DNA of 64,000 bases from an uncultured cyanobacterium. GTDB taxonomy: Bacteria; Cyanobacteriota; Cyanobacteriia; Phormidesmidales; Phormidesmidaceae. Numbering within the stretch: the first letter of the stretch is position 1; each line of letters starts with the position of its first letter. The stretch spans positions 320,001-384,000 of the forward strand of contig CAWBZI010000001.1 of NCBI GenBank assembly GCA_963793265.1. The letters are read 5' to 3'. Position numbers: made by a program. Of this stretch, positions 39,001-45,000 are shown in pieces.

Positions 39001-42000
39001 CAGTTGAGTAAAGCAGCGACATGTCCTCGAAAGCCTGCCAGTGAAAGAGTGGAATGGCAATCACCATGCCTCGATAAATGCCCTGCAGTTCCTCAACGAC
39101 ATAGAAATTAAGGGTGTTTGCTTTCCCAGCAGCCTGTCGCGCGTACTCTACGAGAAGGCAAAGCCTACGAATCGCGTTACCCGCTTCTCTTAACACCGAA
39201 TGTTCAACACTTCTCGCAATCGCATCTGGTCGTCACCTTTGATTTTGAAGCGACCTCTTTCTACGTCTCGAATCCAACTCTGGCTTTTACCTAGTCGCTC
39301 GGCTAGGGCTCGCTGACTCAGTTTTTGCTGCTGGCGCGCAGCATTAATCTCATGTCCCGAAAGTTCTTGCTTCTCCTTTGCTACGGCCCAGCGTTTAGAC
39401 TTCTGACGACTTTTTTTCGGCTTGCGCCGCCGAACATTTCCCTGCCATTCATCGGAGAGTTCAAAGCCCAAAATACGCGCATTGAGCAGGCGCTGCCACT
39501 TATCTCTGGGGGCACTATCGGTAAGGCCGTTGTCTCGGGTGGCATCTTCAATCCAAAAATCAAGCGCATCATCAACATCATCAGGAATTTCGGTTACTTT
39601 AAACCAAAACGGCTGAATATCGGCGGGATAGGTGACGGGATCAAACAGTGGTTTGAGTCCGTAGTGATAGAGCGTTTCGAGATCGCTCTCGAATGTTTTG
39701 AGCAGCCGTTTATGAGCGCCTCGCACGGTTCTCGCTTGTTGCAGCCGAGCTTTCCCATAAGCAATTTCCAGGAGCGTGCTCACTTTCAAGCGCTGGTCGC
39801 CTCCAAGCCTAAGCTTAAACAAATTCCATAACAACAACCGAATGGCTCCCTCATGTTGTTGCCAGTTATTCATGACTTCTTTGATCAGCGATTGGGGTAG
39901 GACACCGTACTGATAAAAGGCCGTTTGGGCGCGATATTCATGCTTGTTGAGAAAGTGCTTGGCCCACAGACCCGATTGAATAGTGAAGCCTAGACCAATT
40001 AGATGTTGAGTCCCTTGAGCGCCTTCGTCAAAGTAGTATTGCGTGTCGAGTAGCTGCCAAACAGGATGTTCGTCTAAGCTAAACGCATTGACTTTTCCCT
40101 GTCTGGGCCAGTCCAGAGAAACCAGGATTTGGCAGGATTGGTAAACCAGATTTTTGATCAGCGTAAGCTTCTCTAATTTGCTTAGGTCTTTGCGCTTATC
40201 GAGCCCTAAATATTTTTCAATGTGCTGATCGTTAATTACAAAAGATTGTTGCCAGGGGTGCTCAAGGGTCATCGCATGCGCTGCAAAGATGAGATGAACG
40301 CAGGCGGCGCGAATATCGAACTGGGCGATCGCCTTACTTGCCTGATCTACCGGCATGGGGACATCCTCATCGGCTTCAGGATCTGCTGCTAATCGAAACC
40401 GTATTTCACCTCTATTGCGATTTACAGACCGTCGATAACAGAGCTGACCGTCAGCATCAGGTTGCCAGGGTAGCGCTTCTCGCTGGGACAGAACGTTACA
40501 GGTCTCCCACATCACCATGCAAGAGGCAAAAGGGGAGGTTTTTTGATTGATGAAGATACTAGGAATGGCGACCGGTAGCAGCGTGCTTTTACAGCGACCT
40601 TTTTTGGGCTGTAGGGGCACCAGTGCATCGACCTCACAAGTCTGTATGCACAGGGGTACTGCTAGATCTGGGCAACCATCGCACAGCGTCGGATCGATCC
40701 AGTAAGTACCTTGCTTTTCGTCAGGCTTAATAGCTCCATTGGGGCATTGAGCCTGACAAACATTGCAGGAAATACAGTTATCCTTAACGGTGTAAGTCAT
40801 GGTGGAAGTAGCCTGCTAATAAACAAAGCAGGTAGGTGGTGTTCTCTTTGGCATTCTCCTCAAACTCTCTTTAAAACTTTTCTCTACGCCGCAAGTTTCT
40901 CTAAATTCGCAACACATAGTGCTCTAACTTTATGTGCGCTAACTTTACTAATTGAAGCAGTTGATTTAATTGACTTTTCAAATTCTAGGCTATTAAGATT
41001 AGCCGCTTGTTCTCGGCTAGATTCACTTATGTACCTTGAAACATAAAAGAACCTACTTGAACCTACTATGTTATAAACTGATGAAAAAGAAAGAGATTAG
41101 ACGGAAAGAGATTAGACAGATTTCTTCTTGCTTTTGCATTTGTCTATTCATTCTCACTTGTTGATATAGGTATAACAACTCAGCATTTTCTATTCTATCT
41201 AATTCGATACAGTTTAATATTTTCTTTATCAATAGTTCAAAGCCTGTTTGAAGCGATTTGAATGTATTAAGATATGAAAGATAGTAGGCCGCTAAAAGAT
41301 TCTGAGAATTCTAGAATTCTCAGAGATAAGAGAGTAGATCAATAGGCAAATTATCTATCGTTTGGATTAGCTAATTCTTGTTTAACTAACGTTTTTGTGA
41401 ATTAGAAGTGGGTAAAGATTGGATCGTTATAGAAGAAGGGGAATGCCAGCCGTGCGTTACGTCTAAAGAGTGGAGCCTGCTCGAAACGCCTTATCACTTC
41501 TATCGCTTTTTAACAGAGGTAGAAGACGTGTTAAAAGTAGCTAAGACTGCGCGGCAGTGTGAGTGCTTGCCTGCATTGCGTCGTCTAGTTCGAAAGCTTT
41601 TAGTCAATGCCTATTGGTTGCGATCCTTCTCAGAAGGCTCTCAGCCATCACAACCCTCAAACTTTAACTTTCCATCTACACTGTCTGTCGAACGGTCTTT
41701 TGGGCAGTCTCAAGAAACTAATTTCATCAACCTTTATGATGAAATTGGCTATCCTTTAACTGTCCAAATGGAAATGCATTTGCCTGGTGAAGTCTCTCCT
41801 ATTCACTCTCACGGCACCTGGGGGATTATTGCGATACTTCAGGGACGGGAAAAGAACACTTTGTGGAAAAGACAACCCGCATTAGCATTGCCTGATAAAA
41901 TTGTCTGTGTCGGTGAGAAAGTTTTGAAGTACGGAGATATTATTAGCTTTGTGCCTGCCGCTATTCACAGCATAGAATCAGTTGGCGCAGACCCATTGGT

Positions 42001-45000
42001 TACGCTTAACCTCTACGGAGAGACGGAGCGAAAGCAGCGGTTTGAGTTTAATCCTATGACGCATCAAGCCAAGCGCTACTAGATGGACGTAGAGATTTTA
42101 TAGGAGATTCATGCATGACAGCAATCCTTTCTTTGAGTTGCCTTATGTGTCTGCTTTAGCCTCTCTAGGCGATGATTTTTACGATTATGTTCAACCGGCT
42201 TATTTTCCTCAGTCGCTACTTCGCTTTCGTAATGACAATCTGCTACTTCTGTTGGGATTAGTGCCAGAAAGAGTGAGCGATCGCCACTTTTCAGAAGCCT
42301 TTGGTCAATTCATCCAGCGCCCTCGCGCTGAGCCAGTAGATCAGGATCAAAGCCAACGTCATCCCTCGCAACGACAAACGGGCATGGCGCTGCGCTATCA
42401 CGGCTATCAATTTGGCCAATACAATCCTTACCTGGGCGATGGACGCGGTTTTCTCTATGGACAAGTGCGCATAGCCATCGACCGCATCGTAGATTTGGGC
42501 ACTAAAGGATCGGGCCGAACGCCCTACTCGCAAGGACTCGATGGCAGGATGACGCTACGGGGCGGCATTCGAGAAGTGCTCGCAGCAGAGGCGCTACAGG
42601 CGCTGGGCATACCGACCTCCCGGGTACTCAGTTTGATAGAGACCGGCGAGGCGATCGCTAGGACGGATGCCCATTCAGCTAGCCGTTCAGCGGTGATGGT
42701 GCGCCTGAGTCATTCGCATATCCGCTTCGGCACTTTCGAGCGGCTAGAGTACTTTGACCGCCCCGATCTCATTCGGCGGCTGCTCGATCATGTCATCACT
42801 TATTACTACAGTCACCTGCAAACATCGCCCGATAGAGATAGTTTGTTCTACGTTGAACTGGTGGAGCGCACGGCCTATTTAGTCGCTCGGTGGATGGCAG
42901 CGGGATTTTGCCATGGCGTAATGAATACCGAGTTTTTCTGGTAGCAGTTTGGCCGATGCGTTTAACCCCTGGAGGCGTCTCTATCACAAACTACTGCGCC
43001 AGCAGCCAGCCTCCGAAATGGACGCTGCCAGTCAGCGATTGAAGCGATACAACCTGGCAACACCCCTTTCGCAACCGGCGATCGCCTCCATTTGGCAGGC
43101 CATTGAGCAGGCTGATGACTGGCAGCTTTTTTTGAGGCGATCGCCAGCTTAAAACAATTTTGTTAACTCTCTTGTTAAATGTTCAATGCCTGCTGTATGA
43201 GCTGACAATCTTTAGCGTTCAGGCTAAACCTTTCCTTCTCGACATCGCGAATCCAGCTTTGGCTTTTACCGATACGATTGGCTAAGGCACGTTGACTCAG
43301 CTTGTTTTGCTGACGCGCTGCTTTAATGGTATCGCCAGAGAGTAAAGGGGACGATGCTCTGGTAGGAGAAGAAGATCTTTTGGTACGAGACTTCGTGCTA
43401 GCCTGGCTGCTGCGGCGCTTAGAACCGCTACGATGCATCACCTGCTGCCAATCTGCGGAAAGTTCGAACCCTTGCAACCGGGCATTGAGCAAGCGCTGCC
43501 ATTTATCTCTAGGTGCATTGTCCATCAGCGATCGGTTCGCCTGGTCAGACCAAAAGTCTATTGCTTCATCAACATCATCTGGAATTAGACAAGCCTTGGC
43601 CCATAGCGGCTGAATATCGAGTGGGTATGTTTCAGGATCGAAGATGGGTTTTAGACCATGATGGTAGATAGCTTCTAGATCGCCTTCAAATGTTTTGAGC
43701 AGTCGCTTGTGTGCGCCTCTTACCGTTGTCGCTTCTAACAACCGAGCCTCGCCGTAAGCAACGCGCAGTAGGGTACGTATCGTCAGACGATGATCGCCGC
43801 CTAGCCGCAGCTTGAACAGCAGCCAGAGGAGAAGCCGAGCAGCGCCTTCATGCTGTTGCCAGTTGCTCATGACTTCTGCGATTAGCGCATGCGGCAAGCT
43901 GCCATATTGAAAAAAGGCGGTTTGATGGCGGTAGTCTTGTCGATTGAGAAAGTGCTTTGCCCACTGACCCGGTCGCAGGGTGAAGCTCATGCCAATCAGG
44001 TGCTGACAGCCCTGCGCGTCTTCTTCAAAATAGTATTGTGTATGTAGCAGATTCCAAATGGGTTGTTCTTCTAGCGCGAATTCTCGAACCTTTCCTTGGC
44101 GGGGCCAATCGAGCGATACCAGGAGCCGAGTGCACTGATACACTAGCGACTTTACTAAGGTAAGCTTCTGTAGTTTGGTGAGATCTTTGCGCTTGTCGAG
44201 ACCCAGATACTTTTCGATATGCTGATCGTTTATTTCAAAGGGGTCTTCCCACGGGCATTCCAACGTTATTGCATAGGCGGCGAAAATGAGATGGACGCAG
44301 GCCGCGCGAATGTCGAACTGGGCGATCGCCTCGCGAGCTGCTTCTGCTGACATGGGCATAAGCGCATTCAATTCGGGATCGGTGGCCAGGCGAAACCGCA
44401 TTTCTCCCCGGTTGTGGTTGACGGAGCGACGGTAGCAAAGCTTACCTGTAGCATCACTTTTCCAGGGCAGTAGGTGTCGCTGAGATAGCACCGTACAAGC
44501 TTCCCAAATCACCATTGAGGAGGCGAAAGGCGTTGTTTTACCATTGATAAAGATACTGGGAATTGCAGGCGGAAGAAGCGTACTTTTGCAGCGTCCTTTC
44601 TTCGCCTGGAGCGGCGTTAAATTGTCTCTATCGTCACAGACTGCCACGCATCGGGGAACGTCTACATCGGGGCAGCTATTGCAAAGGGTCGGATCGATCC
44701 AATACCCTTCGCGCTCGTTCGAAGGCTTAATAGCACCGCTTAAGCACTGAGGGTGACAGCTATCGCAGTCATGGCAACCCTCCTTGATGGTGTAAACCAT
44801 GGGTCAACATCGATTGAATACCCATTGGAGCATATTCGTATGCTATGAGACGTTGTTGTTAAAAATGTCGTAAGAAAGGTCTTTAAAATCAGTGTGAAAA
44901 TTGTCTCCAATGTATTAGGTATAACAATCTGATATGGGGCGTTCTATGCCGTGCGATACGGTTTAATGTTTTCTTTATTATTTTGTTCAGGGTTTCTTGA

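What a model noticed while it worked through the whole genome (the two positions that open the first line are those of the whole stretch)
39190..44800. Two CnfR paralogues for a single nif cluster, flanking a thiol-dioxygenase-like cupin
The one nif cluster carries two full-length CnfR (PatB) activators, 65% identical, both with the ferredoxin-type cysteines and the HTH, separated by a thiol-dioxygenase-like cupin (g00333) and a SelO fragment. Tandem cnfR pairs recur in other lineages, and the cupin recurs beside cnfR, suggesting a two-activator, oxygen-linked control not tied to a second nitrogenase.
Evidence so far: g00332 against g00335: 354/543 identical, full length. One nifH in G000, G003 and G004, all three with the pair and the cupin between. 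Tandem pairs also in G330, G482, G177, G406 from three other families; a g00333 homologue lies near cnfR in 4 of 20 loci fetched. g00333 matches mercaptosuccinate and 3-mercaptopropionate dioxygenases.
(Added by a program. Inside this text positions count along the whole contig: contig position 320,001 is position 1 of the stretch shown here. "Call 12" and the like, gene names such as g00115 and contig names such as C1 are that model's own, and its searches are not shown. The text may have been shortened before it was handed on; [...] marks where a part breaks off. The agent that wrote the report below was given it as the finding of a first reader that could run no searches.)

Follow-up and report, generated by a model that had tools for sequence, protein, structure and literature searches.

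The report
Twin nitrogen-fixation activators, plasmid-derived operator
This cyanobacterium and its close relatives keep two working copies of the master switch for their single set of nitrogen-fixation genes, and one copy's promoter carries the binding site of a plasmid-segregation protein (ParB) whose gene, in the relatives, looks switched on by that same master switch, which suggests an undescribed feedback loop.

Summary
Confirmed: two full-length CnfR paralogues (354/543 identical), one nifH/nifD/nifB. All 10 CnfR-bearing genomes of the genus have both copies and one nifH. The copies form two old clades under purifying selection. The cupin is not tied to the pair: it lies between the copies in 7 of 10, its family is near-universal, and selO is broken here.

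Both copies share an NtcA-like promoter and the same predicted DNA-reading helices, and the genome has only two CnfR-box promoters. Copy A alone (10/10; B 0/10) has an upstream 20-bp palindrome that behaves as the parS of a plasmid ParB subfamily. In 9 of 10 genomes an orphan parB sits in the nif island behind a CnfR-type promoter. Copy B has a changed iron-sulphur domain.

Best reading: two differently tuned activators of one regulon, with a CnfR-ParB-cnfR_A loop. This genome has lost parB, so the loop is broken here. CnfR's core has a plasmid-initiator (Rep) fold, and the cluster lies in a tRNA-Thr-bounded island. Nothing is tested experimentally.

The parts
38543..38597 (-). 3' fragment of tRNA-Thr(UGU); direct repeat of the intact tRNA 65 kb away (C1:423805-423877); att-like left border of the island holding cnfR pair, nif cluster and fermentation genes
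   Evidence: 55 bp, 93% identical; similar junction in G131 and same tRNA beside the island in G115
39190..40800 (-). cnfR copy A (536 aa): 2[4Fe-4S]-type domain 1-63 (ancestral motif), Rep-initiator-like core ~82-454, XRE HTH ~478-536
   Evidence: clade A in trees; dN/dS 0.04-0.08
41169..41229 (-). cnfR promoter cassette of copy A: A-tract, NtcA-like GTA-N8-(GAT/CAT), 22-bp spacer, TG-n-TATACC
   Evidence: found upstream of 10/10 A and 10/10 B copies; only two hits in the whole genome; NtcA assignment is inferred from the recalled class II consensus
41303..41322 (.). perfect palindrome TGAGAATTCTAGAATTCTCA, inferred parS of a plasmid ParB subfamily, 93 bp upstream of the copy-A cassette and 86 bp before the cupin start
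   Evidence: unique in G000 at <=3 mismatches; 10/10 A, 0/10 B; clusters at parAB loci
41408..42082 (+). thiol-dioxygenase-like cupin (3-His H133/H135/H187, Tyr203, Arg211; Asn in place of the outer-sphere His); accessory nif-linked cassette
42111..43131 (+). broken selO paralogue: ORF 42111-42944 stops at the HGVxNTDN motif; frameshifted C-terminal remnant 42931-43131
   Evidence: intact in four tandem-type relatives
43175..44800 (-). cnfR copy B (541 aa): same architecture; Fe-S domain derived (His after Cys1, Leu for the conserved Pro after Cys4)
   Evidence: clade B in trees; dN/dS 0.06-0.10
44918..44978 (-). cnfR promoter cassette of copy B (no parS upstream)
49840..50033 (-). three TGAGTAC CnfR boxes (spacing 73/114) of the nifP promoter
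   Evidence: motif from 10.1101/2025.04.01.646610
52216..52409 (+). three TGAGTAC CnfR boxes (spacing 72/115) of the nifB promoter
52997..64000 (+). the single nif cluster (nifB, fdxN, nifS, nifU, nifH, nifD, nifK, nifEN continuing beyond the window)

Best explanation
The window is the left end of a horizontally mobile nif-plus-fermentation island. An old duplication, before the genus radiated, left two CnfR activators that both still work and both act on the same nifB and nifP promoters. Both are induced by nitrogen starvation through the same NtcA-like promoter (inferred). They differ in their second input. Copy A keeps the ancestral Fe-S domain and has a parS site just upstream of its promoter. 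In the relatives an orphan, ParA-less parB lies in the island behind a CnfR-type promoter, so CnfR turns on ParB, ParB loads at parS and spreads over the cnfR_A promoter. That is a feedback loop, most likely damping, as for KorB or ParB spreading; anti-silencing as for VirB is possible. Copy B has no parS and a more polar Fe-S pocket, so it is probably set by oxygen/redox alone. In G000 itself parB was deleted next to IS elements, so the loop is broken and the parS is left over. The cupin-selO pair is an accessory diazotroph-linked cassette (probably thiol/redox upkeep) that happens to sit between the copies. Shown: gene content, selection, motif distribution, fold. Inferred: every regulatory step.
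For: Both copies are intact and under purifying selection, in two well-supported clades spanning the genus. Same promoter cassette on 20/20 copies. HTH motif GKSQSW[IV]RD[IV]E and the core helix RGAHKRLLKTFE are shared by A, B and outgroups. Only two triple-box promoters in G000. Palindrome on 10/10 A and 0/10 B, including three genomes with no divergent gene there. All 14 genomes of the genus with this ParB subfamily have the palindrome, against 1 of 32 without. Prediction test: in 5 of 5 genomes of another genus it occurs exactly three times, all within 1.9 kb around parB. Island parB in 9/10 genomes, with the CTP motif GERR kept, dN/dS 0.12-0.14, and no close parA in 5 of 5 genomes tested. 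CnfR-type promoter module upstream of 9/9 island parB genes and no TGAGTAY box upstream of 0/6 plasmid parA genes. G195 (other family, single cnfR) has parB at the end of the nifP-nifV run and the palindrome upstream of cnfR. B: Ile10 replaced by His/Arg/Ser in 10/10, conserved Pro lost in 6/10 against 0/40 outgroup.
Against: No expression, binding or mutant data. G000 has no ParB_N domain at all yet keeps a perfect palindrome, so either the loss is recent or the site has another job. The parS-to-promoter distance varies from 45 to 242 bp, and in the tandem genomes the site is nearer the cupin start than the cnfR_A start. The 13 other family genomes with two copies show no such palindrome in the upstream regions examined, so the loop cannot explain two-copy genomes in general. 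Copy A is frameshifted in G117 and the second copy has lost its HTH in G051, and most cnfR loci are single (49 of 72 in the family; 80 of 83 in the phylum sample), so a second copy is dispensable. The NtcA-like site is non-canonical (CAT/GAT for TAC). Kin are not independent samples.
Confidence: 0.5

Rival explanations
1. ParB-parS is a nif-induced DNA-handling device: it condenses, positions or segregates the island or an excised circle, or is a plasmid leftover under weak selection. It has no effect on cnfR_A transcription, and the two CnfRs are redundant or serve dosage.
For: The island is bounded by a tRNA repeat, and its gene order is circularly permuted between G000 and G115/G118. A second site sits right after the parB stop in 6 genomes, as on the plasmids, and a third after a cupin gene in G142. 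Both copies share promoter and DNA-reading helices.
Against: No cognate parA in 5 of 5 genomes tested. One site stays upstream of cnfR_A in 10/10 genomes across rearrangements, and upstream of the single cnfR of G195. parB gained a nifP-like promoter. Clade-fixed differences between A and B argue against plain redundancy.
Confidence: 0.25
2. One paralogue is not a plain nif activator. It antagonises the other (competitor or heterodimer), or controls the island's fermentation genes (pflAB, adhE, acs, pyk, glgX) through a different site.
For: Copy A lies on the fermentation/parB side of the island in most relatives. A has 8 clade-derived positions in the core, three (326, 336, 339) next to the second winged helix. 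A. variabilis CnfR1 and CnfR2 differ in specificity through the N-terminal half, not the HTH (PMC8510180 Discussion).
Against: No CnfR boxes in the adhE-acs intergenic region. Putative recognition helices are conserved. Both Fe-S domains keep all 8 cysteines.
Confidence: 0.15
3. One reading: the cupin is an oxygen/thiol sensor that works with the two activators.
For: It is divergent from cnfR_A in 7 genomes, and a cnfR-cupin-selO unit also stands apart from the nif cluster in G163, G164 and G166. It has a 3-His non-haem iron site. The cupin-linked second selO was seen only in CnfR-bearing genomes.
Against: The cupin is absent between the copies in 3 of 10 genomes. The family is in 146 of 173 genomes, including non-diazotrophs. 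Single-cnfR genomes carry related cupins too. No CnfR box upstream and no conserved cupin promoter motif. Its partner selO is broken or lost in 3 of 7 tandem loci.
Confidence: 0.07

Closest known systems
CnfR1/CnfR2 of Anabaena variabilis ATCC 29413 (PMC8510180)
   Same: Two CnfR paralogues about 60-65% identical, with Fe-S and HTH domains. TGAGTACA boxes at nifB/nifP. In that paper CnfR2 activation is oxygen-inhibited and CnfR1 is not.
   Different: There each copy serves its own nif cluster and cell type; the paper ties two copies to two Mo-nitrogenase clusters. Here there is one cluster and one nifB, and both copies share one promoter type. Whether A or B is closer to CnfR2 was not tested with A. 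variabilis sequences.
CnfR of Leptolyngbya boryana (PMC5943405 passages; Tsujimoto 2014/2016 not readable here)
   Same: Non-heterocystous; cnfR within the nif cluster; activates PnifB and PnifP.
   Different: One cnfR is described and suffices there; no parB or parS was seen in the passages read.
VirB of Shigella and KorB of plasmid RK2 (ParB-family CTP clamps acting on transcription; PMC10770331 passages, PMC11790492 listing only); ParB spreading repression (PMC4010829 abstract)
   Same: Plasmid-derived ParB keeping the CTP motif, loading at an inverted repeat upstream of a regulated promoter; for the island ParB no close ParA was found.
   Different: Here the target would be a metabolic master regulator in a cyanobacterium, and the parB gene itself has the promoter type of that regulator. 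No binding or regulation has been shown.
Horizontally acquired nif cluster of Synechocystis sp. LKSZ1 (10.64898/2026.04.18.719408, passages)
   Same: Its figure legend lists a ParB/sulfiredoxin-domain protein and a cupin-domain protein in a cnfR-to-modBC cluster in a plasticity region.
   Different: Single cnfR; the passages seen give no parS, no role for ParB and no second activator.
Iteron-binding replication initiators (pi of R6K, RctB domains 2-3, RepE; Pfam Rep3_N)
   Same: The CnfR core aligns to pi (Z 10.6, 220 residues, rmsd 4.0) and RctB (Z 10.0), well above the next hit (7.8). ESM Atlas neighbours carry Rep3_N. Fe-S-less homologues sit on 45 plasmids.
   Different: About 9% sequence identity; an added ferredoxin and XRE HTH; the known function is transcription activation. 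No replication role is implied.
Gly-type bacterial thiol dioxygenases (MSDO 8vni, MDO 3uss/6xb9); alr2518 of Nostoc PCC 7120
   Same: 3-His site, Gly at the Cys93 position, Tyr of the outer sphere; family members lie near cnfR in Nostocales.
   Different: The outer-sphere His is Asn/Gln/Ser. The substrate is unknown. The window cupin is in a selO-linked clade, not the Nostocales clade (unrooted tree), so orthology to alr2518 is not established.

Membership tests
CnfR (PatB) | N-terminal 2[4Fe-4S] ferredoxin-like domain with 8 Cys | tested here: met
   8 Cys in the pattern in 9/9 intact A and 10/10 B; model matches 2[4Fe-4S] ferredoxins, rmsd about 1.1. Pfam Fer4 hits A only.
CnfR (PatB) | C-terminal XRE-type HTH | tested here: met
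   PF01381 31.2 bits, cut-off 23, both copies
CnfR (PatB) | Full-length homology to nif-linked orthologues in other diazotrophs; TGAGTAC boxes at nifB/nifP in the same genome | tested here: met
   44-64% full-length matches in other families, including 45/45 genomes of family f7; boxes
CnfR (PatB) | Activates nif transcription; binds Fe-S clusters | not testable with these tools
   needs mutants, reporters and spectroscopy
CnfR1/CnfR2 two-nitrogenase system | Two nif clusters, each with its own nifB promoter | tested here: not met
   one nifH and one nifD in G000; one nifB in 5/5 two-copy relatives tested
parS of a type I ParABS system | Inverted repeat clustered at the cognate parAB locus and tracking one ParB subfamily | tested here: met
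   (G169 again at parB)
parS of a type I ParABS system | CTP-dependent loading of the cognate ParB | not testable with these tools
   the GERR motif is invariant in 20 ParB rows; binding not measured
ParABS partition system (island copy) | Cognate parA beside or with parB | tested here: not met
   no parA in the island loci; best ParA match 38% or none in 5 genomes. G114, G115, G117 and G128 carry a related ParB elsewhere, with parA beside it where the locus was read (G114, G128).
VirB/KorB-like ParB transcription regulators | Changes transcription of promoters near its loading site | not testable with these tools
   position only
Thiol dioxygenases (CDO/MDO/MSDO) | Cupin fold with 3-His iron site | tested here: met
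   H133, H135, H187 invariant in 20 rows; profile match to 8vni E 1.4e-12
Thiol dioxygenases (CDO/MDO/MSDO) | Outer-sphere Ser-His-Tyr triad | tested here: not met
   T-x-N-x-Y in the window protein against S-x-H-x-Y in MDO; the triad's name is recalled
Thiol dioxygenases (CDO/MDO/MSDO) | O2-dependent thiol-to-sulfinate activity | not testable with these tools
   needs an assay
SelO AMPylase | Complete pseudokinase domain | tested here: not met
   PF02696 positions 1-251 of 466 only; deletion and frameshift at the HGVxNTDN motif
Rep_3-type replication initiators | Tandem winged-helix initiator fold | tested here: met
   predicted model only; ESM features. No Pfam Rep3 hit by sequence.
Rep_3-type replication initiators | Initiates replication at an iteron origin | not tested
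   not claimed for CnfR; the plasmid homologues examined lie next to other Rep-type genes
tRNA-integrated genomic island | Direct repeat of a tRNA 3' end at both borders | tested here: met
tRNA-integrated genomic island | Integrase in the element | tested here: inconclusive
   none recognised in the ORF list; tblastn with one recombinase found none

The most novel reading that the evidence does not exclude
The cyanobacterial nif master regulator descends from a plasmid iteron-binding initiator that gained an Fe-S sensor. In this lineage a plasmid ParB-parS clamp has been recruited into the nif regulon as a CTP-dependent feedback regulator of one of two CnfR paralogues: CnfR switches on parB, and ParB spreads from parS over the cnfR_A promoter. 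The second paralogue escaped the loop and retuned its oxygen sensor. That would be a partition clamp acting as timer or limiter of nitrogenase expression, possibly reading CTP or energy status.
Probability: 0.33. Interest if true: 0.88.

Novelty: new variant of a known kind. Interest (0 to 1): 0.7.

Why it matters
CnfR is the one regulator that all cyanobacterial nif clusters depend on. How it senses oxygen and recognises its boxes is open, and the literature read here links two copies to two nitrogenases. A lineage with two retained, differently built CnfRs on one cluster is a natural domain-swap experiment. The Rep-like fold says which part probably reads the TGAGTAC repeats and suggests a plasmid origin. 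An orphan ParB wired into the nif regulon would extend the VirB/KorB type of regulator to a core metabolic pathway. It also bears on moving nif clusters into other phototrophs, where the choice of activator matters.

Tried and rejected
A hidden second nitrogenase: rejected for G000 (one nifH, one nifD) and by one nifB in five two-copy relatives. A recent or decaying duplicate: rejected (dS between A and B about 3.4, dN/dS <=0.10). One copy per target promoter with different sites: no support, since the PnifB and PnifP boxes are alike. CnfR boxes upstream of the cupin or either cnfR: none. A conserved cupin promoter motif across 11 loci: none found. CnfR boxes at adhE-acs: none; one other conserved motif there was not followed up. 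The palindrome as a transcription-factor site with a wider regulon: no other strong site in G000 (best 21.6 against 27-37 bits); one-mismatch single hits across the phylum sample are scattered and the reversed-pattern control also scores some. CyRepX as the identity of the plasmid homologues: the passages read describe helicase-like similarity and do not mention CnfR; not compared by sequence. RNA data: no RNA holder listed, which is no evidence. The scan of named genomes with the island ParB returned only 4 loci. Earlier scan notes: nothing near, by sequence or for the word set. The careful tree did not finish; its quick tree was used and checked with a 47-row bootstrap tree, in which the order of A, B and the third clade is unresolved. 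Dropped from counts: G045 (two broken partial matches) was not counted as two-copy; G117 copy A, G100:C176 and G026:C982 were left out of the residue tally.

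
Full report
OBSERVATION. The two genes are as described: copy A at 39190-40800 and copy B at 43175-44800, both on the minus strand, intact, 354/543 identical. Between them lie a cupin and a SelO fragment on the plus strand. The nif cluster follows (nifV, dps, nifP; nifB to nifEN). Beyond the window come mod genes and pflA, pflB, adhE and acs (these names are read from the translations). G000 has one nifH and one nifD.

HOW COMMON. Of 173 genomes of the family, 82 matched; 72 have CnfR proper and 10 have only a shorter homologue without the ferredoxin domain. By my count from the match table, 23 of the 72 have two copies. nifH was searched in those 72 only: of the 23, 18 have one nifH, one has two, and four (mostly incomplete) have none found. 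All 10 CnfR-bearing genomes among the 46 of the genus have two copies and one nifH; 7 are tandem with the cupin between, 3 are split across the cluster. One copy is frameshifted in G117 and one lacks the HTH in G051. In an even sample of 401 genomes of the phylum, 83 have CnfR and 3 have two (G000, G174, G177). Only three candidates per genome were scored, so this is a lower bound. G174 and G177 have one nifH each and pairs 70-71% identical.

HISTORY AND SELECTION. A and B are separate clades across the genus (SH-aLRT 100 and 99 with 10 rows each, quick tree; 97.7/99 and 99.6/100 with 6 rows each). They form an unresolved three-way split with copies from other genera. The G177 and G174 pairs fall elsewhere, so two-copy states arose more than once. 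dN/dS is 0.044-0.084 for A (7 pairs) and 0.059-0.102 for B (6 pairs; one saturated); dS is high, so these are rough. Against 40 outgroup rows, B replaced Ile10 by His, Arg or Ser in 10/10 and lost the Pro after Cys4 in 6/10 (0/40 outgroup, 0/9 A). A has 8 derived core positions and one in the HTH. That a polar residue next to the cluster changes its oxygen stability is inference from recalled ferredoxin chemistry.

PROMOTERS. The published CnfR boxes (TGAGTACA; passages of 10.1101/2025.04.01.646610 and PMC4284476) occur as triples upstream of nifB and nifP and nowhere else in G000 in that spacing. Both cnfR genes carry the same 61-bp cassette with GTA-N8-(CAT/GAT), a 22-bp spacer and TG-n-TATACC. 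A matrix built from the B copies finds it upstream of 10/10 A copies and exactly twice in G000. The spacing is that of an NtcA class II promoter (recalled), with a non-canonical right half.

THE PALINDROME IS A parS. A 20-bp palindrome (41303-41322) lies 45-242 bp upstream of the cassette in 10/10 A copies. It is absent from that position in 10 B copies and in 27 other family copies, and present in 1 of 21 outside copies, G195. In the genus it also occurs in clusters around parA-parB on plasmid-like contigs. All 14 genomes of the genus with this ParB subfamily (>=50% identity) have it; of the other 32 only G000 does. As a test, I searched five genomes of another genus that have the close ParB: each has exactly three sites, all within 1.9 kb around parB. 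In the phylum sample the only other exact matches are at a parB locus of G169.

ORPHAN parB UNDER CnfR-TYPE CONTROL. Nine of the ten genomes carry a parB in the nif island, often converging on cnfR_A; it is cut by a contig end in G128. A second site follows the parB stop in six. The island ParBs of the genus group together (96.4/88, 8 rows), with G195 weakly attached (71.7/58), sister to the plasmid ParBs. They keep the GERR motif and have dN/dS 0.12-0.14. Six of nine start after the basic N-terminal peptide of the plasmid proteins; three starts are uncertain. No close parA was found in 5 of 5 genomes tested. Upstream of 9/9 island parB genes is a module that aligns with PnifP and PnifB: two or three boxes, the last two 113-115 bp apart in seven, 128 in G114, one box degenerate in G118, plus the intervening motif and the -10 element. 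Five of nine match G000's PnifP by blastn (E 7e-9 to 5e-4). None of six plasmid parA upstream regions has a TGAGTAY box; the background is 0.08 per 650 bp. In G195, parB ends the nifP-nifV run. The G177 tandem pair encloses a more distant ParB (38%) with one exact box upstream, which is weak evidence. G000 has no ParB domain. After acs there are IS elements and a 30-residue glgX stub, where relatives have glgX-(gap)-pyk-parB, so an IS-linked deletion is likely. This counts against the loop operating in the window's own genome.

THE ISLAND. A 55-bp, 93% repeat of the tRNA-Thr(UGU) 3' end at 38543-38597 and the intact tRNA at C1:423805-423877 enclose 65 kb. G115's island starts about 5.5 kb from the same tRNA with the same flanking genes, and G131 has a like junction. 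Gene order is circularly permuted between G000 and G115/G118. No integrase was recognised. The tRNA is a hot spot (other fragments in G127 and G032), so the 65 kb may be composite. A preprint on a horizontally acquired Synechocystis nif cluster lists a ParB-domain and a cupin gene without interpreting them (passages).

FOLD OF CnfR. The AlphaFold2 model (pLDDT 88.9) and the core alone (90.0) match RctB domains 2-3 by Foldseek (E 7e-5 and 9e-6). In a search of 48,161 chains the best matches are pi-iteron (Z 10.6, 220 aligned, rmsd 4.0) and RctB (Z 10.0); the next is 7.8. ESM Atlas neighbours score 0.93-0.94 and carry Rep3_N in 11-36% of members. Homologues without the ferredoxin occur on 45 plasmids in 47 places, beside CyRepA1 or a PriCT-2 gene in the two opened, and near parA or parAB in several genome loci. 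A shared fold shows no function, but it suggests the core reads the repeated boxes as initiators read iterons.

CUPIN AND selO. The cupin has the 3-His site and Tyr of Gly-type thiol dioxygenases, with Asn for the outer-sphere His. Homologues are in 146 of 173 family genomes. In three Nostocales genomes one lies 6-8 kb from cnfR, at the position where PMC2821919 Table 5 lists alr2518 'cupin 2' among genes of N2-fixers (passages). That link is by synteny; alr2518 itself was not compared. The window cupin falls in a selO-linked clade (98/100 with two selO-less members). The second, cupin-linked selO was seen in 16 genomes plus two fragments, all CnfR-bearing (27 weaker matches were not listed). 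It is an accessory of some diazotrophs, not part of the pair.

LITERATURE. PMC8510180 (abstract, Introduction, one Results section, part 1 of the Discussion, supplement searched) links two cnfR copies to two Mo-nitrogenase clusters. Full-text searches for cnfR, PCC 7335 with cnfR/patB, phrases for two copies, CnfR with RctB/ParB and parB with nif clusters listed no paper on two cnfR for one cluster, on a Rep-like CnfR or on a CnfR-controlled parB. Only the listed tops were seen. Tsujimoto 2014 was not held; Tsujimoto 2016, Pratte and Thiel 2016 and Vernon 2017 were not read; bioRxiv supplements (the 2026 nif survey, passages; the Synechocystis preprint) are closed. Any of these may note the two copies. 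VirB: passages. KorB: listing only. ParB spreading: abstract. PMC5943405, PMC8461463, PMC3141437, the DevH preprint and the CyRepX preprint: passages.

VERDICT. The cupin link is weak. The surprising parts are the parS/orphan-ParB circuit on one paralogue and the initiator fold of CnfR; both rest on comparative and predicted-structure evidence only. New variant of a known kind; interest 0.7.

Noticed in passing
G105:C2, G032:C3, G157:C2, G021:C43, G114:C3 and C37 (L139-L147, L157, L158); plasmids H1-H40: A family of 450-670-aa CnfR-core plus HTH proteins without ferredoxin, mostly one per cyanobacterial plasmid, near Rep or parAB genes; annotated only as HTH or hypothetical. Candidate ancestors of CnfR and possible replication regulators.
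   Followed up: partly
G195:C1:313613-318408 (L153): A single-cnfR nif cluster in another family, with a CnfR 61% like the window's, the island-type parB and the same palindrome; fits horizontal transfer of the whole module.
   Followed up: partly
G163:C38, G164:C248, G166:C230 (L050, L066, L011); G160:C11 (L059): A cnfR with divergent cupin-selO away from the main nif contig, without the palindrome; in G160 the cupin-selO pair lies downstream of cnfR instead. A second, independent way of having two copies.
   Followed up: partly
G000:C1:400661-400720 (beyond the window, adhE-acs intergenic): Conserved AATGTCATCAAAAA motif in 8-9 of 9 relatives, followed in some by a parS-like sequence with a one-base longer centre.
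   Followed up: no
window 49733-52997: An MFS (L-lactate/OFA-type) gene and a 182-aa ORF are inserted between nifP and nifB, so each of the normally back-to-back promoters keeps its own box triple 2.2 kb apart.
   Followed up: no
window 56070-57101: nifU is read as two ORFs here, whereas relatives have one of about 290-300 aa: a frameshift or sequencing error near 56570-56690.
   Followed up: no
window 22735-26731: The chlH-like magnesium chelatase gene is split into 1024-aa and 316-aa ORFs overlapping near 25790; likely a frameshift or assembly error.
   Followed up: no
window 45148-45462: An acidic 104-aa ORF without a Pfam match, divergent from cnfR_B and found beside cnfR in many nif clusters, including G177 and G261.
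   Followed up: no
G174:C35:48242, G174:C103:22115, G127:C5:129604: Extra CnfR box triples away from nifB/nifP; the G127 one precedes a NafY/NifX-like gene. The CnfR regulon may be wider in some genomes.
   Followed up: no
G100:C176 (L064): A very divergent CnfR (48%) next to a ParA-family gene and a photosystem II reaction-centre gene; long branch in the trees.
   Followed up: no
window 37728-38423: A GmrSD C-terminal fragment just outside the tRNA repeat, probably the remains of an earlier insertion at the same hot spot.
   Followed up: no
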